A stretch of 50,891 nucleotides of DNA from Minisyncoccota bacterium (GTDB lineage Bacteria; Patescibacteriota; Minisyncoccia; Phycocordibacterales; GCA-2401445), in the NCBI GenBank assembly GCA_040879725.1, contig JBBDJV010000010.1, positions 1 through 50,891 of the forward strand. The letters are read 5' to 3'. Shown here in pieces: positions 14,627-48,711 of this stretch (its first letter is position 1; each line of letters starts with the position of its first letter). The translations under genes were made by a program, and so were the position numbers. Below the pieces are notes generated by a model that made no database searches, had not been told where the DNA came from, and was given only the letters and a program-made list of their open reading frames with translations.

Positions 14627-15973
14627 CTACCGGAGCATAGTTCTTATCTGGTGAATTTCTTGCGCAAGAATAGAATCGTGTTTGATATCAGCTTTTACTT
14701 TTTCACATGAGTGAATAACAGTCGTGTGATCCCTCCCTCCTATTTTCTGACCGATGGAAGGATATGATGCGTGGAAGTCTTCCCGGAGAATGTACATAAT
14801 AATTTGGCGAGGTCGAACAGCTTCTTTCTTTCTTGTTTTTTTATACACAATTTCCTCATCGATACTATAGAAGTCGCTTATGGTTTTAATTACATCTTTA
14901 ACGGACACTATTTTACGTGGTTTAACAGTATCTTTAATAAGGTTTTTTATTTCATTCAAAGATAAATCTCTACCTTTTAAACGTGTTTGGCAAACAATTG
15001 AATTCAAAACACCTTCAAGTTCTCTAATATTCCCTTCTACACTTTGTGCTAGGTAATCAACAATATCATCTTCAAGAAAAACGCTATTTACCTTTATTTT
15101 TTCACGTAAAATAGCAACACGAGACTCATGATCTGGTTCAGGTATGTCAACTATCATACCCGCGCTAAAGCGTGATTTTAGACGGTCTTCCATGTTCGGA
15201 AGATAGTTAGGGTGTTTATCTGATGAAAAGATAATTTGTTTATTGTTGTCGTAAAGACTGTTAAATAAATGGAACAACTCTTCTTGAGTTTTCTCTTTTT
15301 TAGAAAGAAACTGTATATCATCCATAATTAAAATATCGTACTTGCGATATTTTTCTTTAAACATCGTGGCTTTATTGTTCTGAAGTGCGTTTAAATAATC
15401 AAGTGCGAAACGCTCAGAAGTAACATAATAAACTTTTTTCTCTTTATCAGAATTTTTTATATGATTTCCTACCGCTTGCATAAGGTGAGTCTTTCCTAAA
15501 CCAGTATTTCCACAAATAAATAAAGGGTTATATGCTATTCCCGGTTCTTTTAACACTGCTTGCGCGGCAGCATAGGCGAGTTCATTAAATGGCCCAACAA
15601 CAAATGTTTCAAAGGTGTAACGAGGATTTAAGTTGTCTTCTTTATTTATATAAAGCTCGTTTAGCGGAAGTTCGTTGGTGTGCATCACAAAGCGTTGGTT
15701 GAGCAACTCTTTCTTCTTCTGCTCATCTCTGACTACCAAAAACTCCAATGCGCGCACTTGGTCCGACAAACTCCGTAGAATACGAAGGATAAACTTATGA
15801 TATTTGTTGGAGAGCCAATCTTTTACAAACTGGTTTGGGACGCTTGCGTATATTATTCCATCTTCAAATTTAATAATGTCAGTATTCTTAAACCATGTGT
15901 TGAAGTTGGCTTTAGAGACCTCAAGCTCTATTTGTCCCAGGGTATTATCCCAGAGTTGTTTTAAATCAGACAT
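14627..15973 (-). CDS. dnaA: Chromosomal replication initiator DnaA
   Basis: It has Walker A GNTGLGKTHL, Walker B ILIMDDIQF and the C-terminal DNA-binding segment GGRDHTTVIHSCEKV. Confidence 0.97.
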   Translation of the reverse strand: MSDLKQLWDNTLGQIELEVSKANFNTWFKNTDIIKFEDGIIYASVPNQFVKDWLSNKYHKFILRILRSLSDQVRALEFLVVRDEQKKKELLNQRFVMHTNELPLNELYINKEDNLNPRYTFETFVVGPFNELAYAAAQAVLKEPGIAYNPLFICGNTGLGKTHLMQAVGNHIKNSDKEKKVYYVTSERFALDYLNALQNNKATMFKEKYRKYDILIMDDIQFLSKKEKTQEELFHLFNSLYDNNKQIIFSSDKHPNYLPNMEDRLKSRFSAGMIVDIPEPDHESRVAILREKIKVNSVFLEDDIVDYLAQSVEGNIRELEGVLNSIVCQTRLKGRDLSLNEIKNLIKDTVKPRKIVSVKDVIKTISDFYSIDEEIVYKKTRKKEAVRPRQIIMYILREDFHASYPSIGQKIGGRDHTTVIHSCEKVKADIKHDSILAQEIHQIRTMLR

Positions 15974-17436: not shown

Positions 17437-17934
17437 ATGAAAACAGATATTGTAATACAAACACTAAAAGGACTACTCGACAAACTATGCATCAGCTATA
17501 CCGATGTGGTTGTTGAGGAAATGCCTGGTATTCGTGCTGTTAGACTTTCTATTAAAACTCCGGATTCAGGTATGCTAATCGGTACAAAAGGCGAAACTAT
17601 TGCAGCTCTCAATCACCTTCTAAAGCGCATAGCTCTGATGAATGGTGAAATAACAGAAGAGATGATGCGTGAGTATGTGGTTGATGTAAATGACTATCAA
17701 ATTAAACACATAGACGAGTTACAGAGAAAGGCACGTCTTGCTTCAGATCGTGCCCGTTCTTTCGAGTATAACGTCGAGATGGAGCCCATGAATGCATATG
17801 ACCGACTCATTGTTCACAATACACTACAAGACCTTCCAAACATTAAAACTGAGTCAGCTGGAGAGGGACAGTTTCGACACGTGGTGGTGAAGTTCTCAAA
17901 AGAAAAAGAGAACGAAGAATCTTTTACTCTGTAG
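17437..17934 (+). CDS. jag: Jag/KhpB-type RNA-binding protein (KH plus R3H)
   Basis: It follows yidC and has an R3H-like segment (MEPMNAYDRLIVHNTLQD). Confidence 0.8.
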   Translation: MKTDIVIQTLKGLLDKLCISYTDVVVEEMPGIRAVRLSIKTPDSGMLIGTKGETIAALNHLLKRIALMNGEITEEMMREYVVDVNDYQIKHIDELQRKARLASDRARSFEYNVEMEPMNAYDRLIVHNTLQDLPNIKTESAGEGQFRHVVVKFSKEKENEESFTL

Positions 17935-19213
17935 ATTCTCTATCTTCAACAATCACCCGTTCTTCTTCCGCTAGTTGCAGGCTCCATAAAGAGGAGTCTT
18001 TTTTGTTGATAAAGTAAAGGTAATTTTCATTTTCTGAGAGGAATGGGCGAATAACATCTATTTCAACTCGAGCGAAATCAAAAGGGTTTACTAACTCTTC
18101 GCGTGTAAGTGATTCTCTGTCGATTGACCATAGCGAGTCATTAAATGACATAAGTCCCTTATACCATGCGTCAGGATAGCTGTTTACCGGCATAGAAGTG
18201 TTTGCTCCACAATAAACAACTGTGGAGTCACCTTTCCAAACACATTTCTCTGGCAGTACTGCAAGTGGCACTGCGCGGGTTGCGCCACTTCGAACATCAT
18301 AGAGGTATGTTGATATACGAGTGCTATTTGTTACCGAATAAAGAATAACTTCCTCATCAGGGCTCATAAGTACAGTAAGTCCTGGAAGTGGTCCGAGTAC
18401 GCGAGTAAGACGTGCTGTGTCTGTATCAAGTGTGTATGCGTACCCATCCATAGTATTTTGAGGTTTATTTGCGATAAGGATTGTGTCCTCAGACGGCCAG
18501 CTGGCGGTCCACTCACTAAATGGAGAATCAAATATCTTTGTTTGGCTGCTTCCGTCAGGGTTCATTACAATTCCATCTACTCCACCTGCTGTTGGAGTAA
18601 TAGTGAACATTTGTTCACTGGATGGCGACACTGCCAACTCACGTATTTCTGTTACAAGAGGTTTGGCAGTGAATGACCATGACGGTAGCTCGAGAGGCAC
18701 ATCATCTTCTACTATTTCAGGTGTTTCAAGTATAAGCTTTCCGTAAATTGAGCGTATTCTCTCTGTGTTCTGGTCTACATAACGAAACACAACAGCTGTT
18801 CCATTTTCAACCCAATATGAATCATATATTCCCTCGCTTACCTCTCTATCAAGGCGAGTGAGCGTGCTGTCATTTGTGGTTGTTTGGAAAATATCTCCCA
18901 AACGGCGCTCATTATAACGAATAACAGTACTACTCGCTTCAGCGAAAGCTGTTGCACCAGCGACAGGTTCAGGAGTTATTTGCCGTAGTACCGGTTGCGG
19001 AGTGTTTCTAATTGGGTTTAGTCCACCTGTTCCTGAGTTGTTGCCTGGATTATTTTGTTCTCCTGTTTCATTATCAAAAGGAAAAAGATCAGCGGGTGTC
19101 TCGGTAATTGTTTCTGTTGATGGTTCTTTTAAAATAAAGAACCAGTAAGCTCCACCACCGAGTATTGCCAGGAGTGAAAGGACGAGTATAAAGATAAAAA
19201 ATTTATTGTTCAT
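17924..19213 (-). CDS. Membrane-anchored extracytoplasmic protein (possibly beta-propeller-like), last gene of the T4SS-like operon
   Basis: It has an N-terminal TM helix (FFIFILVLSLLAILGGGAYWFFIL). Its start overlaps the upstream gene in an ATGA arrangement. Confidence 0.65.
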   Translation of the reverse strand: MNNKFFIFILVLSLLAILGGGAYWFFILKEPSTETITETPADLFPFDNETGEQNNPGNNSGTGGLNPIRNTPQPVLRQITPEPVAGATAFAEASSTVIRYNERRLGDIFQTTTNDSTLTRLDREVSEGIYDSYWVENGTAVVFRYVDQNTERIRSIYGKLILETPEIVEDDVPLELPSWSFTAKPLVTEIRELAVSPSSEQMFTITPTAGGVDGIVMNPDGSSQTKIFDSPFSEWTASWPSEDTILIANKPQNTMDGYAYTLDTDTARLTRVLGPLPGLTVLMSPDEEVILYSVTNSTRISTYLYDVRSGATRAVPLAVLPEKCVWKGDSTVVYCGANTSMPVNSYPDAWYKGLMSFNDSLWSIDRESLTREELVNPFDFARVEIDVIRPFLSENENYLYFINKKDSSLWSLQLAEEERVIVEDRESTE

Positions 19214-20109
19214 TGTGCTGAGTTTAGTAATGTATCGTTCTTATAGCGTGAGCAGTTAAAGTCTTTTGCATAGTTTGGTTTGGCGGTATTGCATGATCCT
19301 GGAGAAGAAATTGCATCTAGCTTGTAGTCATTTTCTTCATAGGTAATAGTTAATGGCGGGGTGTAGGTATTGTGGTAGTCTGGTTTTTCTTCGTAATAAA
19401 AAACAATTCCCGTAATTGCTCCTTTTACTATATCTGTTTCAAATACTCGATATCGAGCGCAGTGATACTCTGTAATATCTATTTTTTGATCATTCGGTAA
19501 TGTTTGAACAGGAGTAGCGCACGCTTGTGACCCCGCATCATCCTTATCAAAAAGATACGTATAGTTAGTTCCAGCGTATTGTGCCGTTATGTTCCCTGGC
19601 CAAGAAGGCTCGGTACCTTCATTTTTTCGTATAAAGTGGTAAGCAATGGTCGGACTGACTGCGAGTGAGAGATTTTCTGGTTCGGCGTAAGTAACGACCG
19701 CTACCTCAGCGGGTGTATTCGATGTCCCTACATTTTCAAGAAGGAAATTTGTCTGGAGTATTTGAGGGCTGATGGTATTAACGATCAAGAATGAACCGAG
19801 GGCAAGAAGAAGTCCAAAAATTGCCTTATTAACGGTTTGTTTTCCACTCGACTTTTTAGAGACCGCGTCAGTACTCATGTACTGAATTCCTCCATAGACG
19901 ATCATAATAACCGCCAACGCTATTGCTATACCAATGCCAAATGTGTAGAGGTTTCCAAGATACTCTTCGAGTCCTATTCCTGTTTTATTTATGTCATTTT
20001 CTGAAGTGGTGAGTGGAGCGAGAGGAACGTACTCACTTACGGCAAATACGTCAGTGGTGACTGTTCCAAGAAAGATAAGTATGAATGTCAGTGCGAATAA
20101 GTATTTCAT
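19210..20109 (-). CDS. T4SS pilin-like (TrbC/VirB2-type two-helix module) fused to a Cys-containing C-terminal domain
   Basis: A signal peptide is followed by LGNLYTFGIGIAIALAVIMIVYGGIQYMSTDAVSKKSSGKQTVNKAIFGLLLALGSFLIVNTI. This matches the helix / charged loop / helix pattern of the Pfam T4SS_pilin family. Confidence 0.6.
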   Translation of the reverse strand: MKYLFALTFILIFLGTVTTDVFAVSEYVPLAPLTTSENDINKTGIGLEEYLGNLYTFGIGIAIALAVIMIVYGGIQYMSTDAVSKKSSGKQTVNKAIFGLLLALGSFLIVNTISPQILQTNFLLENVGTSNTPAEVAVVTYAEPENLSLAVSPTIAYHFIRKNEGTEPSWPGNITAQYAGTNYTYLFDKDDAGSQACATPVQTLPNDQKIDITEYHCARYRVFETDIVKGAITGIVFYYEEKPDYHNTYTPPLTITYEENDYKLDAISSPGSCNTAKPNYAKDFNCSRYKNDTLLNSAQ

Positions 20110-20112
20110 TGA

Positions 20113-21153
20113 TTATTGTGGGAAAAATGATTGCTCAGTTTGAGTGTTGCCGTCAAAAGTAAGTGTCATGTTTCTTCGTACGCGTGAAAAGATGTTTGCC
20201 GGGTGTGATACATCCAGTACAAGTGTAGCTCTTCCTGATACTCCTCTTTCTGGACGCAAGGTGATTAAGGATGGATCGCTCGTTTGTGGCGCGACACCTT
20301 CTCCATTCACTGACCAGCGATAAGTTAAGCTGCTGTCTTTTTTATCTTGTGTTGGGAAGAAGTACGGGCTCGCCACAAGGGTAAACTCCGGTGTATTGAA
20401 TGTCGCTCCAGATGAGTAGGCTCTTTCATACTGTGTTTTGAGAAGTGGATCGAAACGATAGAAATATAATTCAGGTGAAGCGGGGGCAAGGACTATTTTC
20501 TTTTCAGCAACAAGGTCTTTATTTCTATCTGAAACCGTGACACCAATAGTCATAGGTCCATTAAGAGTGTCTTCTTCTCTAACAAAGTATACCTGCTTCC
20601 CATATCCAGTAGCCGAAGGAATATTTTTGTTGCCTATTTTCCATTCATAGAAAAGCTCTTCAGGGTTAAGTGGTCTTCCGCTAACCCGAAGGTCTGGGAG
20701 CGCCACCACTTTCACCGGCGCTCCATATGTGTATACCGCTCGTCCTTTGTAGAAAGGTGGAGTGTAGGTAAGCGCCTCCCATACCAAGTCGACATTTGAA
20801 GGAATAAAGGAAAAGTCTTGAGTAAGAAAGTTTCCTTCTACTGTTTGAGCAACCATTTCAACATCATTTCGTGAGCCGACATTTCCTGTGGTGAATTCAA
20901 ATGACCGTAACCCAATACCACTTTGCGTTAGCTCGCCGTTTATGTACCAAGAAATATTTGCGCGGTTTAGGTCTGTGCCGAAGCTTTGAATAGTAATGGT
21001 AACCTGCTCGTTTGCTCCAGGTATTTTAGGAATAACGTCTATTTTAAATGCGTTATTATTTATTCCGAACTGCGCTTCCGCAACAGGCCCAGAAATAAAA
21101 AGCAAAAAAAGTATTATACCTAATCCAAAAATGTGCACGATCTTTTTTTGCAT
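20113..21153 (-). CDS. Secreted protein, function unknown (T4SS-like operon)
   Basis: It has a signal peptide/TM (MQKKIVHIFGLGIILFLLFISGPVAEA). The start is set at ATG 21153, 1 nt after the upstream stop. Confidence 0.65.
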   Translation of the reverse strand: MQKKIVHIFGLGIILFLLFISGPVAEAQFGINNNAFKIDVIPKIPGANEQVTITIQSFGTDLNRANISWYINGELTQSGIGLRSFEFTTGNVGSRNDVEMVAQTVEGNFLTQDFSFIPSNVDLVWEALTYTPPFYKGRAVYTYGAPVKVVALPDLRVSGRPLNPEELFYEWKIGNKNIPSATGYGKQVYFVREEDTLNGPMTIGVTVSDRNKDLVAEKKIVLAPASPELYFYRFDPLLKTQYERAYSSGATFNTPEFTLVASPYFFPTQDKKDSSLTYRWSVNGEGVAPQTSDPSLITLRPERGVSGRATLVLDVSHPANIFSRVRRNMTLTFDGNTQTEQSFFPQ

Positions 21154-21154
21154 A

Positions 21155-21535
21155 TTACTTATTTCCTGCAAGGTGTGGTTTTATTGATACTCCTGTCTTA
21201 TCCTCTAATCTTACCATGGATATGATTAGAATTATCCCAATAGTCCACATCGGAAGCCAGCCGGTAAGTGGAAAAACTTCTAAAAGTGCCGCTCCAGAGG
21301 AAACAAGAAATTTCTTCGGACTCAGTAATCCAACCCCGAGCATAAAGAGCCAAAAGGAGAAAACGCATACCGCGAAAAGTGAAACAAATGACTGAAGGGG
21401 TGCAAGGAGTACTGTTGCAGTAAGTACTACTTCCACCACATCAAATATAAGTGCCACACCTATCAGTAAAACGGCGGTAATGTTTCCTATGCGAGTTTTA
21501 GTTCCCTCATTCTCCATTTTCTTCTTTTTGAGCAA
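21155..21535 (-). CDS. Small polytopic membrane protein (about 4 TM), function unknown
   Basis: The profile is hydrophobic throughout. It overlaps the VirB4-like gene end; an alternative start is ATG 21517. Confidence 0.55.
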   Translation of the reverse strand: MLKKKKMENEGTKTRIGNITAVLLIGVALIFDVVEVVLTATVLLAPLQSFVSLFAVCVFSFWLFMLGVGLLSPKKFLVSSGAALLEVFPLTGWLPMWTIGIILIISMVRLEDKTGVSIKPHLAGNK

Positions 21536-23330
21536 GCTCTTGTTTTGCGCGTTTTATAGCAAGTACTTGTGACGGGTCTGAAGTAATGATCTGATCCTCC
21601 GTGTACGAGGCGATTATTTTAATCGCAACGTGCTTCATACCGGCAAAGAAGATACCTTCTCCCACATCAGATTCCAAAAGTAAGAACTTTTCTTCGTCAG
21701 TGAGGTTAAATGTCTCTTTTACTCTATCTACTGCCGTTGGGGACTGTTTCAAAAGTATTTGAATGGAAGAGTTCGTGATAATAGGAATACCATAAGGTGA
21801 CTTCATAAAGTCCCCTACGTCTTGGGTTATGGTAGCAATACCAAGGTAGTATTTTCTTCCTCGTTTTGCCAAGCCAAAGAGGAACGATGCTGTGTCATCA
21901 CTTTTCATCATCCACCATGCCTCATCGATAACAAGAAGTCGCTTTTTGATATTCTTTCTGATTGTATTCCAAATAAAGTGCGTAATGATATACATTGCCG
22001 CCGGCTTTAGCTCGTCTTCCATGTCACGCACAGAAAATACGACAAACTTTTTATTTATGTCTACGTTTGAAGGTTTGTTTATAAAACCAGACCACGTACC
22101 TTTGGTGTACTTGGTTAGCTTTTGCGCAAGACTTTCCCCTCCTTCCATGCCGGCGAGTACCAGCTCGAAGTCTGACATGAGCGGAGCCTCGATGTTAGTG
22201 AAGTCTGATTCCGGTGTGATGTCTTTGAGCGCATAGGTTTCGGTAATTGCTCGGTCCATGATAGCGTCTTCTTCAGGAGAAAGACCTCCAAGCATGATAC
22301 GGAAAAGTCCCACCAAATGAACTATATTTGAACGGAGAACGTCTTGAGGAGATTCATCTGGCGCGGGAATAGGAAGATCAAACGGGTTAATATGGTGTTC
22401 TGAGGTAAGTGATATGTTGAAGTAGCGACCGCCGATAGTGTCTGCCATGTATTCGTATTCCCTCTCAGGGTCGATGACGATAACTTCAGCATCAAACATA
22501 AGTGTACGAAGTATTTCAAGTTTTGTGGCATAGGATTTTCCTGAACCTGATTTAGCAAACGTAACTGAGTTGTAGTTTTCAAGAGAGAAGCGGTCAAAAA
22601 TAACCAAACTGGAATTATGGCGGTTTACACCGTAGAGAATTCCTCTGTCACTAGTGAGGTCAAACGATACAAAAGGAAAAATACTCGAGAGTGGAGAAGA
22701 GTTTAGTTTTGAGTGCACCATTAGCTGGTCATCTCCGATGGGTATAACACTCTTGAGTCCTTGTTCTTGTTGGAATAGAGCGGGCTTGAGGTACACTAAC
22801 TTCGCTTCCAGTATTGAACGTATTTCTGATTCTGCTTTATCAAGCTCGTGCTCGTTTTCAGCGTAGACGGTAATATACAGACCCACATCAAAAAGCTTTT
22901 CTTGTGCTTGCATAAGGTCATCACGGAGTTGTTCCAAGTCCTGATAGGCGGTATCAAGCATCGGGTCACGAACCAAACCTTTATCCTCTCGCGCGTGGAT
23001 CTGGCTTTGTACCTCGGCTACTTTCTTTTGGAATGTACGAAGTACTTTTGCTGTTTCAACAGGATGAACAAAAATAGAAATATCAAATACTTTATCGAGG
23101 TTGATGATAGGAGAAAACCAGTTTTCAGTTAAGAAGCGGGGGTATGAAATAACAAAAAGTGTTCTACCTACTTTGTCACCCAAATTAAAATCTTTTGGGG
23201 TTATACGAAGCGCGGAGGGCGCAATAATATCTCGCAATTCCAAAATACCCGCTTCATAAATTTCCTGCGGAAGAATAGGTGCAATTTCCGGTGTGTTTTG
23301 TTTAGTTTTTAGAAAATCAAATAGTCCCAT
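21507..23330 (-). CDS. virB4: VirB4/TrbE/TrsE-family type IV secretion ATPase
   Basis: It has Walker A FAKSGSGKSYATK and Walker B RLLVIDEAWWMM. The N-terminal pattern GRTLFVISYPRFLTENWFSPII is typical of VirB4. Confidence 0.85.
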   Translation of the reverse strand: MGLFDFLKTKQNTPEIAPILPQEIYEAGILELRDIIAPSALRITPKDFNLGDKVGRTLFVISYPRFLTENWFSPIINLDKVFDISIFVHPVETAKVLRTFQKKVAEVQSQIHAREDKGLVRDPMLDTAYQDLEQLRDDLMQAQEKLFDVGLYITVYAENEHELDKAESEIRSILEAKLVYLKPALFQQEQGLKSVIPIGDDQLMVHSKLNSSPLSSIFPFVSFDLTSDRGILYGVNRHNSSLVIFDRFSLENYNSVTFAKSGSGKSYATKLEILRTLMFDAEVIVIDPEREYEYMADTIGGRYFNISLTSEHHINPFDLPIPAPDESPQDVLRSNIVHLVGLFRIMLGGLSPEEDAIMDRAITETYALKDITPESDFTNIEAPLMSDFELVLAGMEGGESLAQKLTKYTKGTWSGFINKPSNVDINKKFVVFSVRDMEDELKPAAMYIITHFIWNTIRKNIKKRLLVIDEAWWMMKSDDTASFLFGLAKRGRKYYLGIATITQDVGDFMKSPYGIPIITNSSIQILLKQSPTAVDRVKETFNLTDEEKFLLLESDVGEGIFFAGMKHVAIKIIASYTEDQIITSDPSQVLAIKRAKQELAQKEENGE

Positions 23331-23334
23331 AAAA

Positions 23335-23964
23335 TTATTCTACCTGAATAGGCTTTTCCGATTCGCCTGGATTAAACAGCTTATAAAATACTTCAACAAT
23401 TTCTTCAGTTCCCAATCGCGCAACGCGAATACCTGTACGAATAAGACCTTGTTCTACAATCGATACTCTCTGTTCAAGCTGGCTTCTGTTCTCTTCGAAT
23501 TTTTCTATTTTAGATTCCGCTTGTGCTTGTGCGTTCTTTTTCTTGAAAAGCGAGCTAGAACCTCCAATAGATCCCGGAGAATACGGAATGACAATAATAA
23601 AGCTCTTTGTCATAATACTGGTGTTTTCGGTAAAGTTTTTGATGAAGTTTATATACTCGCGAGTTTGGGTTTTGATAAGCTCTTCCACTTGTTCTTTTTG
23701 GCGAGCTTCGAGAAGCGCTATGTATGGTCTGATATCAAGCTCTCTGGACTGTACGAAAATCTGAATTGAAAAATCAAGCGAGTTAAGGAAGTTTTGGAAC
23801 TGAAGGATAATTCCCTGTTGCTCATCTTCTGACTTAAGCGCAAAGTTAAGAGACGATACAAGTACAAGTGCTCGCATTGAGTTGTCCTCAAGCACAACCA
23901 CTCCATCACGAACTTCCTTTATAGGTACGAAGTCTTGAGTTGGTTTACTTTTGTTGTTGGCCAT
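23335..23964 (-). CDS. VirB4-associated protein resembling the extreme N-terminal region of Gram-positive VirB4 proteins
   Basis: The segment FVPIKEVRDGVVVLEDNSMRALVLVSSLNFALKSEDEQ fits this. It ends 4 nt before the VirB4-like ATG, in a different frame. Confidence 0.55.
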   Translation of the reverse strand: MANNKSKPTQDFVPIKEVRDGVVVLEDNSMRALVLVSSLNFALKSEDEQQGIILQFQNFLNSLDFSIQIFVQSRELDIRPYIALLEARQKEQVEELIKTQTREYINFIKNFTENTSIMTKSFIIVIPYSPGSIGGSSSLFKKKNAQAQAESKIEKFEENRSQLEQRVSIVEQGLIRTGIRVARLGTEEIVEVFYKLFNPGESEKPIQVE

Positions 23965-24379
23965 AATGATTTTTTGATTCGTGGATATCTAAGCTCCATG
24001 CCAAATCTTTTAGTTTACTGTCTGAGAGTCTTGGTACATACGTTTCCGCTCCTGTGTCAGAAATATCTTTTTTCTCCGTATGATTTACTTTTTTGGGTAT
24101 TTTTTTCCAAATATAAAGTCGTGCGCGAGTGTAGAAATAAAATGCAGATTCAAGCATGTTTATAAAGGGTCGCTTTGACTGATCTTTATAAAATGCCAGT
24201 GCAATGGAAAGGACAACTACTGGAGTCAGAAGTACAAATGCAAGAATTTTTGGACTAATAAGCGAAAAGATGGTAAATGCCAAACCCGCTCCTCCTGCCA
24301 AATAAATGAACTGCTTCAGGGTTAATGGCCCGAAAATCTTATCTTCCACCTCAATAAACTGGGGCACTTGAAACCTCAT
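23945..24379 (-). CDS. PrgI-family (VirB3-analog) membrane protein, first gene of the T4SS-like operon
   Basis: The sequence MRFQVPQFIEVEDKIFGPLTLKQFIYLAGGAGLAF is followed by a second TM helix. Confidence 0.6.
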   Translation of the reverse strand: MRFQVPQFIEVEDKIFGPLTLKQFIYLAGGAGLAFTIFSLISPKILAFVLLTPVVVLSIALAFYKDQSKRPFINMLESAFYFYTRARLYIWKKIPKKVNHTEKKDISDTGAETYVPRLSDSKLKDLAWSLDIHESKNHYGQQQK

Positions 24380-24385
24380 GTAAAA

Positions 24386-24391
24386 AGTATA
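24386..24391 (-). promoter_or_regulatory. -10 TATACT, 6 nt before the ATG of the T4SS-like operon
   Basis: The minus strand reads TATACT-TTTTAC-ATG. Confidence 0.45.
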
Positions 24392-24651
24392 CCTTACACT
24401 GGCATAAATGTACTGTGTATACGGAAACTAAGGAGGTAGAAGTAGCTGTGTATAACGGTTTGACTTTGCCTACAGGTTAGGTATAGTAAAGGAATACCGA
24501 ATGAGTTGATGAAATATTTTGGCTTAACAAAGCCATATTTTGAAATAACTTCCGTCTGTCACCTAAACAAAAACATATAAAACGTTCGAACAAAGAACCT
24601 GGTAACATACAAGAGGCCTCAAAAAACCAGGCGACATATCGAGAACAAAAA

Positions 24652-25689
24652 ATGCGTTTTCTCACAAAAACACTTTTTTTCGTATCTATCATAGGCCTCC
24701 CATTTACTCTCAATGCGGGGTTTTTTTCCTACATGAGTTCACTGTTTGAACAGAAAACAAGCGAGGTAGATAGTGGTTTTCAATATAATTCCCAGAATGT
24801 GGCTCTACTAAAGGCTGCGACGAATGCAAATCCGGCATTGGCGCAAGGAGGAAGCGATGTTGCGGTTATTTCCGGAAGTGCCCTTCTTGCCGAAACCGGT
24901 CCAAGTGGAACTATTGCAAATATTGGTGATTTTCAGCCGGAACAAGGTTCAATTTCAACATATGTTGTCCGTGAAGGCGATTCACTCTCTGAAATAGCAA
25001 CAATGTTTAATGTGAGTCAAAACACAATTTTGTGGGCAAATGACCTTAGTAGGACTTCTGTAATAAAACCAGGACAACAGCTTATTATCCTACCGGTTAC
25101 TGGTGTGCGACACATGATAGCAAAAGGAGATACATTAGAGAGTATTTCCAAAAAGTATAAGGCAGATATAGATGAAATAAGAGGTTTCAATGCTATTAGT
25201 AGTGATACAGTATTGGCAATTGGTGAAGTACTTATTATTCCTGAAGGAGAAGTTTCTATTAGTGCGTATACTCCTTCTGTGGCAGTGAAAGAGAAAAGCA
25301 CCGCTGAATATGTGGGTTACTTTACTCACCCGGTTCCAACAGCTCTAAAAACACAAGGATTGCACGGATATAATGCGGTTGACTTTGGTGCTCCACAGGG
25401 AACACCGATATACGCATCAGCGTCAGGAGAAGTTGTGGTTGCGCGAAGTGGTGGCTGGAACGGCGGTTTTGGAAGCTACGTGGTGATTAAACACCCTAAT
25501 GGCGCACAAACACTGTATGCGCACCAAAGCTCTGTTTTGGTTAACTCAGGAGACTGGGTGGTGAAAGGAGAGCGTATTGGTTCTGTTGGTTCAACTGGAA
25601 GATCAACCGGCCCTCACCTTCACTTTGAAGTTCGAGGAGCAAAGAATCCTTTCTCTTCTTGCGCACTTATGTCTCGTTGCGGTTACTAA
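24652..25689 (+). CDS. Secreted LysM-domain M23 peptidoglycan endopeptidase
   Basis: It has a signal peptide and two LysM repeats (YVVREGDSLSEIA, HMIAKGDTLESIS). The M23 motifs are HGYNAVDF and GSTGRSTGPHLHFEV. Confidence 0.9.
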   Translation: MRFLTKTLFFVSIIGLPFTLNAGFFSYMSSLFEQKTSEVDSGFQYNSQNVALLKAATNANPALAQGGSDVAVISGSALLAETGPSGTIANIGDFQPEQGSISTYVVREGDSLSEIATMFNVSQNTILWANDLSRTSVIKPGQQLIILPVTGVRHMIAKGDTLESISKKYKADIDEIRGFNAISSDTVLAIGEVLIIPEGEVSISAYTPSVAVKEKSTAEYVGYFTHPVPTALKTQGLHGYNAVDFGAPQGTPIYASASGEVVVARSGGWNGGFGSYVVIKHPNGAQTLYAHQSSVLVNSGDWVVKGERIGSVGSTGRSTGPHLHFEVRGAKNPFSSCALMSRCGY

Positions 25690-44636: not shown

Positions 44637-45584
44637 ATGGAAGACGTAGAACAGCAAGAAGAGGGGAATACTCAAAATAAAAGCTTTCCAGCGAAGCGAT
44701 TTTTCTTATTTGCGGGAATAGTTGCACTTATTGTTATTTTTGCCGTTCTATTAGTGCTACTACCCACAAAAGGAGAAAAGGTACTCACTCCCGGAGGAAG
44801 TATTGCTACAGATACAGAGGGTTCCACGGTAAGTAACTCTAGGGGTGTTACTGACACAGACATGGACGGATTAGCGGACTGGGAAGAAAAACTTTGGAAT
44901 ACTGATCCCAAAAACCCTGATACAGACGGAGACGGCACTTCCGACGGAGATGAGGTGTTTACAGGAAGAAATCCACTAAAGCCCGGCCCAAATGACGCAA
45001 TGGACAACCCACTTTTTATAAAAAACCCGGAATATGCAGAAACTTCCGAGGAAAATGAACCGATAGGTACAAATAATGAAGAAAATGAAGCTTCTCTAAA
45101 CGAAACGGAACCAGAAACAAGCACTGAAGTCCGCTTTGAGCGAACGTATGGCAACCGGCTGGCGGGGCACATTTCGTCCCTCTCAAGAAACACAGAGGAA
45201 TATAATTCTGCATTTACTGAGTTTTTAAATAACCCAAATGAGTCCGTGTATAGCCGTGTTTCTGCGATAGGAGTTGATTACAATAACCTTATAGCTACAT
45301 TAATGGATCTTCCGCGTCCCGAATCAGCAACTACAGAACACAATGCGCTTATTTCATCGATGCAAAAGTATGTCGCAGAGGTGAATAATATAGTTTCAGT
45401 AAAAAAAGAGGGTGATATACCAATTGAAACATACACTTCGTACTCAGAATCAGCTTTTGCGATGCAGGAAGCACTTGCCAGTCTTGCACTATATTTCGAA
45501 GCCGAGCAAGTTACGTTTAATTCAAATGAGCCTGCGTACTTCTTTACCCAATATGCACTTGCGTTAAAGCAAAGAGGAAATTAA
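44637..45584 (+). CDS. Membrane-anchored protein with a thrombospondin type 3-like Ca-binding repeat (paralog 1)
   Basis: A TM helix is followed by DTDMDGLADWEEKLWNTDPKNPDTDGDGTSDGDEV and a helical C-domain. Confidence 0.75.
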   Translation: MEDVEQQEEGNTQNKSFPAKRFFLFAGIVALIVIFAVLLVLLPTKGEKVLTPGGSIATDTEGSTVSNSRGVTDTDMDGLADWEEKLWNTDPKNPDTDGDGTSDGDEVFTGRNPLKPGPNDAMDNPLFIKNPEYAETSEENEPIGTNNEENEASLNETEPETSTEVRFERTYGNRLAGHISSLSRNTEEYNSAFTEFLNNPNESVYSRVSAIGVDYNNLIATLMDLPRPESATTEHNALISSMQKYVAEVNNIVSVKKEGDIPIETYTSYSESAFAMQEALASLALYFEAEQVTFNSNEPAYFFTQYALALKQRGN

Positions 45585-45629
45585 TTTTCCACGGGGTAAT
45601 TTAATTTTTTGGGGTACAATATATGGGAT

Positions 45630-46598
45630 ATGGTGATGCGCCCATCAAATAAAATTGCGGTAGCGCTTATTGTTGCGAGCTCGGTAATTGCCGTGTCCTT
45701 GCTTTTTCTTGTACCGAATAAGGGTGAAGTTGTTCAAAATGACCAGCTTACAAGCACATTTACTGATACACTCGTTTCTCAAGATTCAGACAGTGACGGT
45801 CTTGCTGATTGGGAAGAGGTTGTGTGGGGAACAGATGCGCAAAATCCCGATACCGATGGCGATGGCACATTGGACGGCGAAGAGGTGCTTCTTGGTAGAG
45901 ACCCCCGAAAACCTGCACCAAATGACAGAATTGACCTTGAAGCGGAAAATAGAAAACAACAGCAGATTCAAGCGGATGCAAACATTTCAGAAACAGATAA
46001 GCTCGCACAAGATGTATTTACAGAGTATCTGGCATTGAAAAATAGCGGCACTGCCGTCACTGATGAGGAAATTGTGTCCCAAATCGCTACCCATATAAAA
46101 AATTCATCAGCACCTACCGGTGAGCCGTATACACAAAATGATGTGCAAAGCATTTCCACAAATACCCAAACACTCAGGGTATACGCGGAAACAATGGGTA
46201 CGCTTCTTTCTGTGAACAGCCCCAAGACAGGAGGAAGTGAAATAGAATTACTGCAACGAGCGCTTAACGGAGGAGGGCAAAGAGAAATAGATGGAATAAT
46301 AGAGATTAGCAGACTCTACGGAGCGATTGCTGATGGTGCAAGGGAAGTCTCTGTACCGAGTGATTTAGTCGATACGCATATTGCACTGGTTACAAATCTT
46401 ACGGCGATGGAGCAGGTTATCTTTGACTTGAGTTTTGCATTGAAAGATCCACTGCGTGCGGTGAATGCAACAAGTGTATATGTGAAGGTATTAGATAACG
46501 TAACTGCAAGTTTAAACAAAATTTCTTTCTATTACAGTGAGAAAGGAATAAGTTTTGAACAGGGTACGAGTGGTTACCTCTTCATTCATGCGATATAA
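45630..46598 (+). CDS. Membrane-anchored protein with a thrombospondin type 3-like Ca-binding repeat (paralog 2)
   Basis: A TM helix is followed by DSDSDGLADWEEVVWGTDAQNPDTDGDGTLDGEEV. The start is set at ATG 45630, 9 nt after TACAAT. Confidence 0.75.
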   Translation: MVMRPSNKIAVALIVASSVIAVSLLFLVPNKGEVVQNDQLTSTFTDTLVSQDSDSDGLADWEEVVWGTDAQNPDTDGDGTLDGEEVLLGRDPRKPAPNDRIDLEAENRKQQQIQADANISETDKLAQDVFTEYLALKNSGTAVTDEEIVSQIATHIKNSSAPTGEPYTQNDVQSISTNTQTLRVYAETMGTLLSVNSPKTGGSEIELLQRALNGGGQREIDGIIEISRLYGAIADGAREVSVPSDLVDTHIALVTNLTAMEQVIFDLSFALKDPLRAVNATSVYVKVLDNVTASLNKISFYYSEKGISFEQGTSGYLFIHAI

Positions 46599-46623
46599 TT
46601 TCAATACGATAGATGTGGTGGGT

Positions 46624-48711
46624 ATGATTACACAAAAAAAAGTATTAAGCAGTTTATTTTTCTTATTATTACTGGTAAGTACTTTTTTTGCGGTACCACC
46701 TAAACAAGCTGAAGCGATAAGTGTTCCTGTGTTTGATGGTGTTGCTATCGCGGAGCTTACTATCATCGCGCAGTCTGCGGTTACTATGCAAACCAAAGAG
46801 TTGGCACTCGATGGTGTAGTGTTCGCGCTTATCAATGCAATAATTGACCAAATAGGCCAGCAGATGGTGAGCTGGATAAATAGCGGATTTGACGGAAATC
46901 CTGGATTCGTAACAGACCCTGCAGGACTGTTTGCGAGTGCTGCAAACAATGTTGCAGCAGACTTTATCGATGAGCTTGGATTGGGCTTTCTCTGTGATTC
47001 GTTTAGTTTGGAAATTCAGTTTGCTCTCAGCGCGAACTTCGGTTTTGGAAACAGAGGACTTACCTCAGCTGGAGCTTGTACATTGAATGATATTTATGAA
47101 AATGTTGCGTCAGGTGAGATTGCCAGCATGAGTGCGTTTTATGATGTTGCACTTAAACCAAATAACAACCCATACATTTCTTACTTAGATGCAGAGAGCG
47201 CACTGGTGGTAAATGTTTCTCAGAACAATAAAATTCTTGGAGATGTTGTGAGTTGGGGAAATGGCTTTCTCTCCGATTTCAATATCGATGGATACATTGA
47301 AACACCAGGAGCATTTGTGGAAACACAACTCAATGACGCTATCGGTTCAGGACAGCAAAGACTTCAAATCGCCGATGAAATTAGCGAAATTATTGGAGCT
47401 CTTATGAACATGCTTCTTGACTCTGCATTCAATGGTCTAGCAAGTGTGGGTTCATCCGGTTCATACACATTCACTGCTCCTGATTTTATAAACAACACTG
47501 AAGGTTCTATAACTGAGACGTGCCCAAGTGGTGAGACAGACAGCACGGGAAGATGTATTGGGGACTACGATACACCGGTGATTGATAACCCAGGCGGCGG
47601 CGGTAGCGCCGGTGTTGCTCCAGGAAGACGAGAACCTTTTAATGTGGCCTTTGATAAAACAGCAAGACAAATTACAACACTTCAGACTGGGGGAGTAAGT
47701 TGGTTGGCGGGAAGAGCGATTGACAATAATATTGATACTGGAAATATTCCATATACACGATTGAATACAGATCGTCCTACTATCGCAATAACATCGAGTG
47801 TAGAAAACCCATGGTGGGAGTTAGATTTGGAAGAACTTCATTTTGTAGAAGAGGTTAAAATATATTTACGATCAGATATATGGTTAACTGATGCGGTAAG
47901 TAGAGGTGGAGTTCGAGTAGATTTCTTTGATACAAACCGATCTCTTGTACACCAGCATAGTTTTCGTTCAACCCAAATTGCGAATTCGGTTCCATTGAGA
48001 GTTACGTCTTTGCCTGATGGACAAGCGGTAAGATTTATTAGAATAAATAGAATACCACCTGAAGGGCAACCAAATTCAACCACAGGTCAACTTCATCTTG
48101 CTGAAGTACAGGTGTCTGGCTTGCCACAGATTGACTACACCGTTTCAAATGTTAACTTAGCCCTTAAAAATGCAAATGGCCAAGCATATTATTCAGCCCC
48201 ATACCCCTATGTACATCCTACTACCGGAGAAGTAATAGAGTATCCCGCAAGCAATATTGTAGACGGAAGCAGTAACAATACCGCTCCTGAAACTGATGAG
48301 AAAACAAGAGAGCCGTGGCCTGCTTACGCTGGACCTGCCGGTACTGCTAACCAGCCTTTCTTTTCAGTACGTATGAATGAAATGTCGAATATTGCGGAGG
48401 TGCGTATACATCCTCCAACTGGAACTATCTTTAATCCCGAAACAGATAGTGATTTGTATATTGTGCTTGCGCGTGACCAAGATTCAGCAATAAACACATC
48501 GCTTACACTCTCGTCTATGCGAAATGACAGCGCAAATTATCGAGTGGTGCAAATACCTGATTTAGTGCTTCAAGGTGGGGCACCGTATATTGTGCAGTTT
48601 GACTTGGAAGACTACTTTGAAACAGGGCATGTACGTCTACAGAGAGAAGGACAAACACCGATTGGTCTTGGTGAGCTTGAGGTTATTGGTAAGTTAGCTC
48701 CACGATTTTAA
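46624..48711 (+). CDS. Secreted large protein with two discoidin (F5/8 type C)-like carbohydrate-binding domains
   Basis: It has a signal peptide (LFFLLLLVSTFFAVPPKQAEA). The segments NPWWELDLEELHFVEEVKIYLR and FFSVRMNEMSNIAEVRIH resemble discoidin-domain signatures. The start is set at ATG 46624. Confidence 0.75.
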   Translation: MITQKKVLSSLFFLLLLVSTFFAVPPKQAEAISVPVFDGVAIAELTIIAQSAVTMQTKELALDGVVFALINAIIDQIGQQMVSWINSGFDGNPGFVTDPAGLFASAANNVAADFIDELGLGFLCDSFSLEIQFALSANFGFGNRGLTSAGACTLNDIYENVASGEIASMSAFYDVALKPNNNPYISYLDAESALVVNVSQNNKILGDVVSWGNGFLSDFNIDGYIETPGAFVETQLNDAIGSGQQRLQIADEISEIIGALMNMLLDSAFNGLASVGSSGSYTFTAPDFINNTEGSITETCPSGETDSTGRCIGDYDTPVIDNPGGGGSAGVAPGRREPFNVAFDKTARQITTLQTGGVSWLAGRAIDNNIDTGNIPYTRLNTDRPTIAITSSVENPWWELDLEELHFVEEVKIYLRSDIWLTDAVSRGGVRVDFFDTNRSLVHQHSFRSTQIANSVPLRVTSLPDGQAVRFIRINRIPPEGQPNSTTGQLHLAEVQVSGLPQIDYTVSNVNLALKNANGQAYYSAPYPYVHPTTGEVIEYPASNIVDGSSNNTAPETDEKTREPWPAYAGPAGTANQPFFSVRMNEMSNIAEVRIHPPTGTIFNPETDSDLYIVLARDQDSAINTSLTLSSMRNDSANYRVVQIPDLVLQGGAPYIVQFDLEDYFETGHVRLQREGQTPIGLGELEVIGKLAPRF

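What the first reader, a model, noticed from the sequence alone, without database searches (positions are those of the whole stretch)
17924..25689. Seven-gene type IV secretion-like operon next to the origin, with a divergent LysM-M23 hydrolase
The genes are tightly packed, with overlaps or gaps of 4 nt or less. In order they are: a PrgI-like/VirB3 analog, a 209-aa VirB4 partner, the VirB4 ATPase, a 4-TM protein, a 352-aa secreted protein, a T4SS_pilin-like module fused to a domain of about 170 aa containing Cys, and a 429-aa anchored protein. No VirD4 coupling protein, relaxase or VirB6 lies in the operon. A VirB6-like gene lies about 25 kb away. The M23/LysM enzyme transcribed divergently could act as the wall-opening hydrolase. 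VirB4/pilin systems are reported in CPR-type epibionts. The four accessory proteins and the pilin fusion have no function I can assign.
Basis: partly seen in the sequence, partly recalled or inferred. Interest (0 to 1): 0.65.

Follow-up and report, generated by a model that had tools for sequence, protein, structure and literature searches.

The report
Patescibacterial type IV secretion operon
This is the chromosomal type IV secretion-like machine that almost all ultra-small Patescibacteria (CPR) carry next to their replication origin; it was described in 2023-2025, so the locus is real but ordinary for this group, and only its outer accessory proteins remain unexplained.

Summary
The seven tightly packed minus-strand genes (17924-24379) exist as described. 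Profile searches support PrgI/VirB3, a VirB4 ATPase and a VirB2-like pilin module. The 209-aa "partner" is VirB4's own N-terminal domain on a separate polypeptide (TrsD-like). This fission is present in all 99 related loci that hold both genes.

The genome is a 0.87-Mb Paceibacteria (Parcubacteria) MAG. VirB4 is single-copy and 72-95% identical across 38 families of the order, which is better conserved than DnaA. It keeps the same place beside dnaA-yidC.

The operon is the downstream half of an ancestral 12-gene unit. In this family a 10-kb block was moved about 17 kb away and inverted; it now lies at 41.5-51.5 kb. The block holds uvrD, ksgA, two TSP3-repeat proteins, a large secreted protein, the VirB6-like protein and a cytoplasmic protein ending in DPYREP.

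The M23/LysM gene became a neighbour only through this move, so synteny gives no support for a dedicated hydrolase role.

The accessory proteins are a small polytopic membrane protein, a probable triple Ig-like protein, a pilin fused to a hypervariable Cys-paired head, and an anchored beta-propeller.

The system matches the Patescibacteria T4SS of Quinonero-Coronel et al. 2025 and Wang et al. 2023. Its substrate is unknown.

The parts
23945..24379 (-). g1: PrgI/VirB3-like protein, 144 aa, with a two-helix membrane hairpin (residues 24-63)
   Evidence: Pfam PrgI 41.4 bits against a cut-off of 27. Hydropathy. Present in 84 of 85 loci directly upstream of the VirB4 N-domain gene.
23335..23964 (-). 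g2: TrsD-like protein, 209 aa; the N-terminal domain of VirB4 as a separate soluble polypeptide
   Evidence: NCBIfam VirB4_plasma positions 98-282 (E 1.9e-12), CD1110 positions 2-134, TrsD positions 10-200 of 201. Stop TAA, 4 nt, then the ATG of g3 in another frame. Split, same strand and median gap 4 nt in 99 of 99 loci.
21507..23330 (-). g3: VirB4 ATPase body, 607 aa; Walker A GSGKS, Walker B LLVIDEAW
   Evidence: NCBIfam conju_CD1110 371.6 bits against a cut-off of 325, model positions 185-733; Pfam P-loop_TraG 87 bits. Single copy at 72-95% identity in 39 of 41 genomes of the order; 51-59% identity in other classes. Motifs read from the translation.
21155..21535 (-). g4: small polytopic membrane protein, 126 aa, 3-4 hydrophobic helices
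   Evidence: Hydropathy. Only a weak Pfam DUF6121 hit, E 0.002. A small 1-4-TM ORF fills this slot in most relatives, but its sequence is poorly conserved.
20113..21171 (-). g5: signal/anchor helix followed by a probable three tandem Ig-like beta-sandwich domains, 352 aa
   Evidence: Profile against PDB sequences: Hoc Ig-like domain E 5.9e-4, with other Ig chains weaker. Invariant W75, W177 and W286 at about 105-aa spacing. Found in 84 of 85 loci. No structure was predicted.
19210..20109 (-). g6: signal peptide, VirB2-like pilin hairpin (47-112), then a hypervariable C-terminal domain of about 185 aa with 4 Cys
   Evidence: Pfam T4SS_pilin E 5.5e-5; 44 of 46 orthologues match. AlphaFold pLDDT is above 90 for residues 47-112 and below 50 after residue 140. 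The C-domain has an even Cys count in 46 of 46 orthologues and is 30% identical within the genus, against 94% for VirB4.
17924..19213 (-). g7: N-terminal membrane anchor, disordered linker (33-67), then a beta-propeller of about 350 aa; 429 aa in all
   Evidence: AlphaFold pLDDT 87.7, pTM 0.80. Foldseek matches TolB, S9-peptidase and WD40 propellers at E about 1e-10. Profile against PDB sequences: TolB E 0.008. A homologue lies 2-16 kb downstream of virB4 on the same strand in 14 of 20 genomes of other classes.
48715..50691 (+). VirB6-like polytopic membrane protein, 658 aa, with a long charged C-terminal tail; part of the displaced upstream half
   Evidence: Pfam TrbL 19.8 bits, E 7e-4, below the cut-off of 25.9. 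Five of 31 orthologues match NCBIfam CD3337/EF1877 mobilome membrane protein (best E 1.1e-6) and one matches Mbov_0396. It lies directly upstream of PrgI, or of the DPYREP gene, in 72 of 85 loci.
46555..48711 (+). p718: secreted or anchored protein with a conserved Cys-containing N-domain and variable discoidin (F5/8 type C)/Ig C-domains
   Evidence: Pfam F5_F8_type_C_2 E 1.4e-4 here, and as low as 2.7e-12 in orthologues. Invariant W107, C147 and C175. Found in 65 of 85 loci next to the VirB6-like gene.
44637..46598 (+). p315 and p329: two paralogous membrane-anchored proteins with TSP3 calcium-binding repeats; the first genes of the ancestral unit
   Evidence: Pfam TSP3_bac 35.8 and 25.1 bits. 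Single N-terminal TM helix. One or both lie between ksgA and p718 in relatives.
50717..50891 (+). Start of 'mid244', which runs to 51451 of the contig, beyond the window. It is a cytoplasmic protein with a conserved N-domain of about 100 aa, a disordered tail and a C-terminal DPYREP motif. In relatives it sits between the VirB6-like gene and PrgI.
   Evidence: tblastn of the relatives' intervening ORFs hits only C10:50717-51448. The motif lies within 3 residues of the C-terminus in 29 of 30 orthologues and occurs once in this genome.
24652..25689 (+). LysM x2 plus M23 peptidase, 345 aa. A divergent neighbour, not shown to belong to the system.
   Evidence: Pfam. Adjacent to PrgI only in L021 and L022/L046, which are the same genus and family. 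It lies beyond uvrD in ancestral-type loci.
14627..15973 (-). dnaA, the origin marker that fixes the chromosomal position of the cluster
   Evidence: Pfam Bac_DnaA 229 bits. dnaN-dnaA-(rnpA)-yidC-(jag) flank g7 in about 70 of 85 loci.

Best explanation
The locus is this organism's copy of the vertically inherited, chromosomal 'Patescibacteria-clade' type IV secretion system. That system descends from monoderm (MPF-FATA) conjugation machinery and has lost its link to conjugation.

Shown here:
- A membrane core is encoded: a PrgI/VirB3 hairpin, a VirB4 ATPase made as two polypeptides (TrsD-like N-domain plus ATPase body), and a polytopic VirB6-like protein.
- VirB2-like pilins are encoded: the fusion g6 in the operon, plus a five-gene pilin array on another contig.
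- Extracytoplasmic proteins follow: a triple Ig-like protein, an anchored beta-propeller, TSP3-repeat proteins and a discoidin-domain protein.
- The seven genes are the downstream half of an ancestral 12-gene unit that was split in this family by relocation of a 10-kb block.

Inferred:
- VirB4 with PrgI and VirB6 forms the membrane platform that extracts pilins from the membrane and polymerises a pilus or channel through the cell wall.
- The fast-evolving outer proteins form the part that meets the host cell. In this reading g6 is a pilin-anchored variable head.
- The machine moves macromolecules between epibiont and host. Either uptake of host material or export of effectors is possible.

I put the identity at about 0.9. 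I put the claim that it serves host interaction rather than conjugation at about 0.7. The substrate and direction are unknown.
For: Family matches above or near curated cut-offs.

VirB4 is single-copy in 39 of 41 genomes from 38 families at 72-95% identity, with an open frame of about 600-700 aa throughout. It is 51-59% identical in 20 of 20 genomes of other classes, but only 28-35% identical to the best plasmid VirB4s. Those are all from Bacillota or Actinomycetota and are annotated as the CD1110 family.

The order dnaN-dnaA-yidC | g7-g6-g5-(g4)-VirB4C-VirB4N-PrgI-(mid)-VirB6-p718-p329/p315-ksgA-uvrD is conserved in 85 loci.

No relaxase of Pfam Relaxase, Mob_Pre or TrwC is found in the genome. 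The only T4CP-like gene is on another contig and lacks a membrane anchor. A five-gene T4SS_pilin array lies at C6:26839-28944.

Rate contrast within the genus: VirB4 94%, DnaA 94%, g5 and g7 59%, g6 40%, g6 head 30%.

Literature: the same system, with TrsD, PrgI, VirB6, VirB2-like pilins, dnaA proximity and no relaxase, was described across 2,417 genomes (PMC12102498). It is essential for epibiotic growth of Southlakia epibionticum (PMC10633639). Tubular structures at the host interface of a cultivated relative have been proposed to be T4SS pili (bioRxiv 10.64898/2026.06.21.733656).
Against: - The VirB6 assignment rests on sub-threshold profile hits plus synteny.
- The pilin hit of g6 itself is 3 bits under Pfam's cut-off.
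- No VirB8-like or VirB1-like component was identified.
- After the rearrangement, PrgI-to-g7 needs its own promoter. The sigma-70 scan found none on the minus strand in the 272-bp spacer.
- The functional part is inference from homology and from work in a different class (Saccharimonadia), whose cluster lacks the propeller and Ig proteins.
Confidence: 0.85

Rival explanations
1. It is a DNA-import machine working like the archaeal Ced system or the Helicobacter ComB system. A VirB4-type ATPase, a VirB6-like channel and VirB2-like pilins, without relaxase or coupling protein, would pull in foreign DNA as a nucleotide source or for transformation.
For: The component set (VirB4, VirB6-like, VirB2-like pilins; no relaxase, no linked T4CP) resembles Ced (my knowledge of Ced). 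There is a weak NCBIfam CedB match over VirB4 residues 438-508, E 2e-7. The organism presumably cannot make nucleotides, as stated for the phylum in the papers read. comM lies 1.3 kb from the operon.
Against: In S. epibionticum the T4SS is essential, whereas comEC-dependent transformation is dispensable (PMC12857230). The CedB hit covers only the generic P-loop region. VirB4 here is closest to bacterial monoderm conjugative ATPases. No DNA-binding component was found in the cluster.
Confidence: 0.12
2. It builds only an adhesive pilus or surface organelle. VirB4 would power pilin polymerisation, and the Ig, propeller and variable-head proteins would mediate attachment to the host. Nothing would be translocated.
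For: Pilin genes are abundant: g6 plus a five-gene array. The outer proteins have adhesin-like folds (Ig-like, discoidin, TSP3, propeller) and evolve fast. No coupling protein is linked.
Against: The window also encodes a type IV pilus assembly ATPase (4512-6206, Pfam T2SSE 368 bits). Type IV pili are the structures implicated in host adhesion in Saccharibacteria. The conserved VirB6-like channel protein, the very strong constraint on VirB4 and the cytoplasmic DPYREP protein would be unexpected for an adhesin-only device; this last point is inference.
Confidence: 0.15
3. It is a functional or decaying integrative conjugative element that happens to sit near the origin.
For: VirB4, PrgI and the VirB6-like gene are colinear with the VirB6-PrgI-VirB4-hydrolase order of a Bacillota plasmid (Brevibacillus borstelensis). 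A T4CP-like gene exists elsewhere in the genome.
Against: The cluster is single-copy. It has the same chromosomal position in about 70 of 85 loci from dozens of families. VirB4 is more conserved than DnaA (median 79% against 61%). G+C is 0.41-0.42, like the flanks. There is no integrase, no relaxase and no flanking repeats. All frames are intact.
Confidence: 0.02

Closest known systems
Patescibacteria-clade T4SS (Quinonero-Coronel et al. 2025, PMC12102498; S. epibionticum SEML1_0006-0019, Wang et al. 2023, PMC10633639)
   Same: The core order VirB6-like, PrgI, TrsD-like, VirB4 is shared (S. epibionticum supplement). Also shared are VirB2-like pilins including a separate pilin array, the absence of a relaxase, a T4CP encoded elsewhere, the position next to dnaA, and vertical inheritance.
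   Different: In S. epibionticum the genes after virB4 are peptidase and lysozyme homologues. Here, and across this Paceibacteria order, they are a small TM protein, a triple Ig-like protein, a pilin fused to a variable head, and an anchored beta-propeller. The words propeller, TolB, WD40 and Ig-like do not occur in the main text of the 2025 survey. The word propeller does not occur in the main text of the 2023 paper, and in its supplement it occurs only for GyrA. In this family the unit is also split in two.
Monoderm conjugative T4SS of class MPF-FATA (CD1110/CTn2 type; pGO1 TrsD/TrsE; pCF10 PrgH-PrgI-PrgJ)
   Same: VirB4 scores above the CD1110-family cut-off. PrgI is present. The TrsD-like split matches pGO1. 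The order VirB6-PrgI-VirB4 is colinear with a Brevibacillus plasmid.
   Different: There is no relaxase, MobC or linked VirD4. There is no large NlpC/P60 or SLT hydrolase after VirB4. Pilins are present, which Gram-positive systems lack (PMC12857230). The locus is chromosomal and a core gene set. Identity to plasmid VirB4s is only 28-35%.
Mycoplasma ICE transfer module (Mbov_0395 pilin-like, Mbov_0396 TM protein, Mbov_0397 VirB4)
   Same: The VirB4 halves match NCBIfam VirB4_plasma (262.6 bits for the ATPase body and E 1.9e-12 for the N-domain). g6 weakly matches the Mbov_0395 pilin-like family (E 0.012). One VirB6-like orthologue matches Mbov_0396. This shows that a pilin-like protein next to VirB4 exists in wall-less monoderm elements.
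   Different: All matches are below the equivalog cut-offs. The mycoplasma module is on a mobile element with its own DDE recombinase (my knowledge). Here the system is a fixed chromosomal locus.
Archaeal Ced DNA-import system (CedA, CedA1/A2, CedB)
   Same: It works with a VirB4-family ATPase, a polytopic membrane protein and VirB2-like pilins, without relaxase or coupling protein (my knowledge; discussed in PMC12102498).
   Different: Only a local P-loop match to CedB (E 2e-7, against a cut-off of 700 bits). No CedA-like protein was detected. DNA import was not tested.

Membership tests
VirB4 ATPase family (T4SS signature protein) | Profile match over the ATPase body above a curated threshold | tested here: met
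   NCBIfam conju_CD1110 371.6 bits against a cut-off of 325; Pfam P-loop_TraG 87.2 bits against 25.8.
VirB4 ATPase family (T4SS signature protein) | Intact Walker A and Walker B motifs | tested here: met
   KSGSGKSY and LLVIDEAW are read in the translation.
VirB4 ATPase family (T4SS signature protein) | N-terminal domain present | tested here: met
   It is present as the separate 209-aa ORF. Model positions of g2 (2-134) and g3 (185-733) are consecutive. The split is conserved in 99 of 99 loci.
Patescibacteria-clade T4SS | VirB4 falls in the monophyletic Patescibacteria VirB4 clade nested in MPF-FATA | tested here: inconclusive
   No tree with reference classes was built. Identity is 51-95% to Patescibacteria VirB4s against 28-35% to the best plasmid VirB4s, all from monoderms. 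This is consistent with clade membership but is not a phylogenetic test.
Patescibacteria-clade T4SS | TrsD-like and PrgI/VirB3 genes adjacent to virB4 | tested here: met
Patescibacteria-clade T4SS | VirB6 homologue associated with virB4 | tested here: inconclusive
   Pfam TrbL 19.8 bits, under the cut-off of 25.9; only 2 of 31 orthologues match. Five of 31 match CD3337/EF1877 and one matches Mbov_0396. The polytopic topology and the conserved position next to PrgI in 72 of 85 loci support it.
Patescibacteria-clade T4SS | VirB2-like pilin gene(s) | tested here: met
   g6 scores E 5.5e-5 and 44 of 46 orthologues match T4SS_pilin. Five further pilin genes score over the cut-off at C6.
Patescibacteria-clade T4SS | Chromosomal, near dnaA, no relaxase | tested here: met
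   dnaA is 2 kb from g7. Synteny holds in about 70 of 85 loci. Pfam Relaxase, Mob_Pre and TrwC are absent from the genome; other MOB classes were not tested.
Conjugative T4SS (MPF-FATA) / ICE | Relaxase and coupling protein (VirD4/TcpA) encoded with the mating-pair genes | tested here: not met
   Neither is in the operon or its displaced half. The one T4CP-like gene is at C20:64183-66078 among glycosyltransferase-like genes and has no TM anchor. No relaxase was found.
Conjugative T4SS (MPF-FATA) / ICE | Mobile: variable location, integrase, patchy distribution | tested here: not met
   Fixed location and near-universal single copy across the order.
VirB1-type dedicated cell-wall hydrolase (claimed for the M23/LysM gene) | Conserved linkage to the T4SS genes | tested here: not met
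   It is adjacent to PrgI only in the window's genus and family. In ancestral-type loci it is separated from the T4SS genes by ksgA and uvrD.
TolB-like / PD40 beta-propeller (g7) | Propeller fold | tested here: met
   AlphaFold pLDDT 87.7 and pTM 0.80, all-beta from residue 76 to 413. Foldseek top hits are propellers at E about 1e-10 with TM-scores of 0.4-0.67. Membership in the TolB family itself is not claimed: identity is 8-14% and the sequence-profile E-value is 0.008.

The most novel reading that the evidence does not exclude
The genes downstream of virB4 (g4-g7) may, together with the TSP3 and discoidin proteins upstream, form an undescribed extracellular module of the T4SS in Paceibacteria and several other Patescibacteria classes. 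In this reading the module takes the place of the VirB1/VirB8-type wall components. An Ig-repeat stalk and an anchored propeller would support the pilus. A single pilin would carry a swappable, disulfide-bonded head domain; in some relatives that head is an SLT or M15 peptidoglycan hydrolase or an Ig domain. The head would recognise or breach the host envelope and so set host range. The cytoplasmic protein with the invariant C-terminal DPYREP peptide could be an adaptor or substrate that docks on the ATPase in place of a coupling protein.
Probability: 0.25. Interest if true: 0.6.

Novelty: already known. Interest (0 to 1): 0.3.

Why it matters
The T4SS of Patescibacteria is one of the few machines shown to be essential for the epibiotic life of these ultra-small bacteria, and its substrate is an open question. 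This locus adds no new kind of system.

The comparison made here does give a gene-by-gene map for one large Paceibacteria order. That map comprises a 12-gene ancestral unit, an ATPase conserved more strongly than DnaA, and a set of fast-evolving outer proteins: triple Ig-like, propeller, pilin with variable head, and the DPYREP protein. The papers I could read do not mention these proteins in their main text, and they are the obvious candidates for the host-contact part. They would be sensible targets once a Paceibacteria co-culture becomes genetically tractable.

Tried and rejected
- Pilin fusion structure. The AlphaFold model of g6 was confident only for the pilin hairpin; the C-terminal head had pLDDT below 50. 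Its Foldseek search gave nothing below E 0.9. The profile against PDB sequences gave no hit.
- Profiles of p718 and the VirB6-like protein against PDB sequences gave only low-complexity or coiled-coil noise.
- Pfam scans of the DPYREP-protein orthologues gave only scattered single hits.
- One p718 orthologue hit DUF4141 (E 1.3e-5) and another hit TrbJ (E 0.017). These are too thin to call p718 VirB5-like.
- tblastn of g7, p718 and the VirB6-like protein against 72,556 plasmids found no match. No link to plasmid accessory genes is therefore detectable at that sensitivity.
- The sigma-70/terminator scan gave counts at the shuffle expectation and no minus-strand promoter in the PrgI-M23 spacer.
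- Programmed frameshifting between g2 and g3 was considered and rejected. The spacer length varies among relatives (10th to 90th percentile -9 to +65 nt) and g3 has its own ATG.
- The ICE reading was rejected on synteny.
- opened the annotation table of a clostridial plasmid hit before I registered the organism. I made no use of it and used a Brevibacillus plasmid instead.
- Only two structure jobs were allowed, so g5 was not modelled.

Full report
**Observation.** The ORF map shows seven consecutive minus-strand ORFs from 24379 down to 17924, of 144, 209, 607, 126, 352, 299 and 429 aa. With longest-ORF starts the junctions are -20, +4, -29, -17, +3 and -4 nt. A divergent LysM-M23 gene lies at 24652-25689. 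dnaA and dnaN lie at 13.3-16.0 kb, followed by rnpA, yidC and a jag-like gene that converges on the last operon gene. The cumulative GC skew turns at 15-17 kb. The description is accurate.

**Family assignments.**
- g1 matches Pfam PrgI at 41.4 bits (cut-off 27) and has a two-helix hairpin.
- g3 matches NCBIfam conju_CD1110, a VirB4-like conjugal transfer ATPase family, at 371.6 bits (cut-off 325) over model positions 185-733. It also matches Pfam P-loop_TraG. Walker A (GSGKS) and Walker B (LLVIDEAW) are intact.
- g2 is not merely a partner of VirB4. It aligns to the first part of VirB4 models: CD1110 positions 2-134, VirB4_plasma positions 98-282 (E 1.9e-12), and the staphylococcal TrsD/TraD protein end to end (10-200 of 201).
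- g2 ends with TAA, and g3 starts 4 nt later in another frame with its own ATG.
- In 99 of 99 related loci holding both genes, the two ORFs are separate and on the same strand, with a median gap of 4 nt and variable spacing. This is a stable gene fission, not a frameshift error or a programmed frameshift.
- g6 matches Pfam T4SS_pilin at E 5.5e-5 (23.6 bits, just under the cut-off). Of its 46 aligned orthologues, 44 match, with E as low as 2.4e-10.

**Organism and conservation.** The assembly is 0.87 Mb in 22 contigs. Related loci carry titles such as Taylorbacteria, Zambryskibacteria, Kaiserbacteria, Campbellbacteria, Nomurabacteria and Paceibacterota, so this is a Paceibacteria (Parcubacteria) MAG. 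The VirB4 body is single-copy in 39 of 41 genomes drawn from 38 families of the order, at 72-95% identity, with an open frame of about 600-700 aa everywhere. Across 85 loci its median identity to the window is 79%, against 61% for DnaA. In 20 genomes of other Patescibacteria classes it is still 51-59% identical. The best matches among 72,556 plasmids are 28-35% identical, all in Bacillota or Actinomycetota, and annotated as the CD1110 family.

**Synteny and the rearrangement.** In relatives, written with VirB4 on the minus strand, the order is:

dnaN- dnaA- (rnpA+) yidC+ (jag+) g7- g6- g5- (g4-) VirB4C- VirB4N- PrgI- (mid-) VirB6like- p718- p329/p315- ksgA- uvrD-, sometimes followed by M23+ comM-.

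- The seven genes are therefore the downstream half of a 12-gene unit.
- In the window the block uvrD+ ksgA+ p315+ p329+ p718+ VirB6like+ mid+ lies at 41.5-51.5 kb on the other strand.
- M23+ comM- dksA- and the genes after them keep their orientation and now abut PrgI.
- A relocation with inversion of the 10-kb block explains this; two nested inversions would produce it.
- The same split is seen only in the same-genus genome and one same-family genome (L021, L022/L046).
- It also removes the argument for the M23/LysM enzyme as a dedicated partner. Its adjacency is recent, and in ancestral-type loci two housekeeping genes separate it from the T4SS genes.
- The gene I call mid244 starts at 50717 and runs past the window end to 51451 of the contig.

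**Accessory proteins.**
- g4 is a small protein with 3-4 hydrophobic helices. Its sequence is poorly conserved, but an equivalent small membrane ORF sits in this slot in most relatives.
- g5 has an N-terminal hydrophobic helix and probably three domains of about 105 aa, each with an invariant Trp (W75, W177, W286). Its profile hits the Ig-like Hoc protein (E 5.9e-4) and other Ig chains. I read it as three tandem Ig-like domains. This is inferred, because no model was made.
- g7 was modelled with a 46-sequence alignment (pLDDT 87.7, pTM 0.80). It has a membrane helix, a disordered linker (33-67) and an all-beta propeller. Foldseek returns TolB, S9-peptidase and WD40 propellers at E about 1e-10 and 8-14% identity. 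The fold is clear, but no specific family or activity follows from it.
- g6 was modelled confidently only for the pilin hairpin, residues 47-112.
- The g6 C-terminal extension is about 185 aa (median 191 aa among orthologues) and is so variable that the alignment has 12% mean column identity.
- That extension carries an even number of cysteines in 46 of 46 orthologues, from 0 to 12. This fits an extracytoplasmic, disulfide-bonded domain.
- Single orthologues carry a He_PIG Ig domain, an SLT lytic transglycosylase domain or an M15 peptidase domain in that position.
- Upstream-half proteins: p315 and p329 are anchored TSP3-repeat paralogues. p718 has a conserved Cys-containing N-domain and variable discoidin/Ig domains. 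The VirB6-like protein is polytopic with a long charged tail.
- mid244 has no hydrophobic segment. It has a conserved N-domain of about 100 aa, a disordered tail of variable length and a DPYREP motif within three residues of the C-terminus in 29 of 30 orthologues. The motif occurs nowhere else in this genome.

**Evolutionary rates.** Against the same-genus genome, identities are VirB4 94%, DnaA 94%, TrsD-like 90%, PrgI 77% and YidC 78%. For the outer proteins they are g5 59%, g7 59%, g4 44% and g6 40%, with the g6 head at 30%. The cytoplasmic and membrane core is under very strong constraint, while the exposed parts diverge quickly.

**Reach of the accessory set.**
- A profile of g7 finds propeller homologues of about 370-450 aa in roughly 30 of 120 genomes sampled across the phylum, at E below 1e-9.
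- In 14 of the 20 best cases the hit lies 2-16 kb downstream of virB4 on the same strand; in 12 of them it lies within 8 kb.
- Profile hits for g5 outside the order are few. Those found lie between virB4 and the propeller gene, inside larger proteins of 530-950 aa.
- The S. epibionticum cluster has the same VirB6-PrgI-TrsD-VirB4 core but no propeller.

**Rest of the genome.**
- A T4CP-like gene (Pfam T4SS-DNA_transf 34.8 bits) lies on contig C20. It has no membrane anchor and has unrelated neighbours.
- Five tandem T4SS_pilin genes lie on contig C6.
- Pfam Relaxase, Mob_Pre and TrwC find nothing in the genome.

**Comparison with the literature.** Quinonero-Coronel et al. 2025 (PMC12102498) surveyed 3,035 Patescibacteria genomes. 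They report:
- a monophyletic VirB4 clade nested in MPF-FATA;
- TrsD as the most frequent partner;
- PrgI/VirB3, VirB6 and VirB2-like pilins, including arrays;
- rarity of relaxases, and T4CP genes far from virB4;
- proximity to dnaA, dnaN, rnpA and ksgA, notably in Paceibacteria.

Wang et al. 2023 (PMC10633639) showed that the S. epibionticum T4SS genes, including the pilins, are essential for epibiotic growth. A 2025 review (PMC12857230) proposes a pilus conduit for exchange with the host. A 2026 preprint reports tubular structures at the host interface of a cultivated relative together with uptake of host RNA. Every headline feature of the finding is therefore already published. The main text of the 2025 survey does not contain the words propeller, TolB, WD40 or Ig-like, and the 2023 paper does not contain propeller except for GyrA in its supplement. 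I did not find the pilin head or the DPYREP protein described in the passages I read.

**Mechanism.** Shown: the component list, topology predictions, conservation and linkage. Inferred from established knowledge of T4SSs:
- VirB4, tethered by VirB3/PrgI and associated with VirB6, is the assembly and translocation ATPase and dislocates VirB2 pilins from the membrane for polymerisation.
- The termini of VirB2-type pilins face outward in assembled pili. A C-terminal head on g6 would then be displayed on, or at the end of, the filament.
- The Ig and propeller proteins are anchored in the membrane with their bulk outside. They could scaffold the passage through the wall.

The substrate and direction remain open. 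I favour a host-interaction conduit over DNA import, pure adhesion or conjugation, for the reasons given under the rival explanations.

**Verdict.** The system is already known. Interest is modest and rests on the uncharacterised outer module.

Noticed in passing
window 50717-50891, continuing to 51451 of contig C10: A cytoplasmic protein of 244 aa has a nearly invariant DPYREP motif within three residues of its C-terminus in 29 of 30 orthologues. The motif is unique in this genome. In relatives the gene always sits between the VirB6-like gene and PrgI. It may be a docking peptide or a secretion signal.
   Followed up: partly
window 41537-51451 compared with 24380-24651: A 10-kb block (uvrD, ksgA and five T4SS-linked genes) has been relocated and inverted relative to the order kept in dozens of families. 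This splits the ancestral operon. PrgI-to-g7 must now use a new promoter, and none was found by the consensus scan.
   Followed up: partly
own genome, contig C6:26839-28944: Five tandem VirB2-like pilin genes (80-183 aa) match Pfam T4SS_pilin at 27-45 bits. They lie far from the T4SS operon and resemble the essential pilin array of S. epibionticum.
   Followed up: partly
own genome, contig C20:64183-66078: A T4CP/VirD4-like ATPase of 631 aa has no N-terminal membrane helices and a long disordered, charged C-terminal tail. It lies next to glycosyltransferase-like genes.
   Followed up: partly
window 21507-23330 compared with 14627-15973: The VirB4 ATPase body is more conserved across the order than DnaA: median 79% against 61% identity over 85 loci.
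   Followed up: yes
loci of alignment A1 (g6 orthologues): The C-terminal head of the operon's pilin has an even Cys count in 46 of 46 orthologues. In single relatives it is replaced by an SLT, a Peptidase_M15_4 or a He_PIG domain, so the pilin acts as a carrier for swappable outer domains.
   Followed up: partly
window 4512-6206: A type IV pilus/T2SS assembly ATPase (Pfam T2SSE 368 bits, MshEN domain) lies 12 kb from the T4SS genes. Both surface machines are therefore origin-proximal.
   Followed up: no
window 27692-29002: A 436-aa ORF between the dksA-like gene and pnp has no Pfam match and one central hydrophobic helix. It is conserved at 31-50% identity in three close relatives.
   Followed up: no
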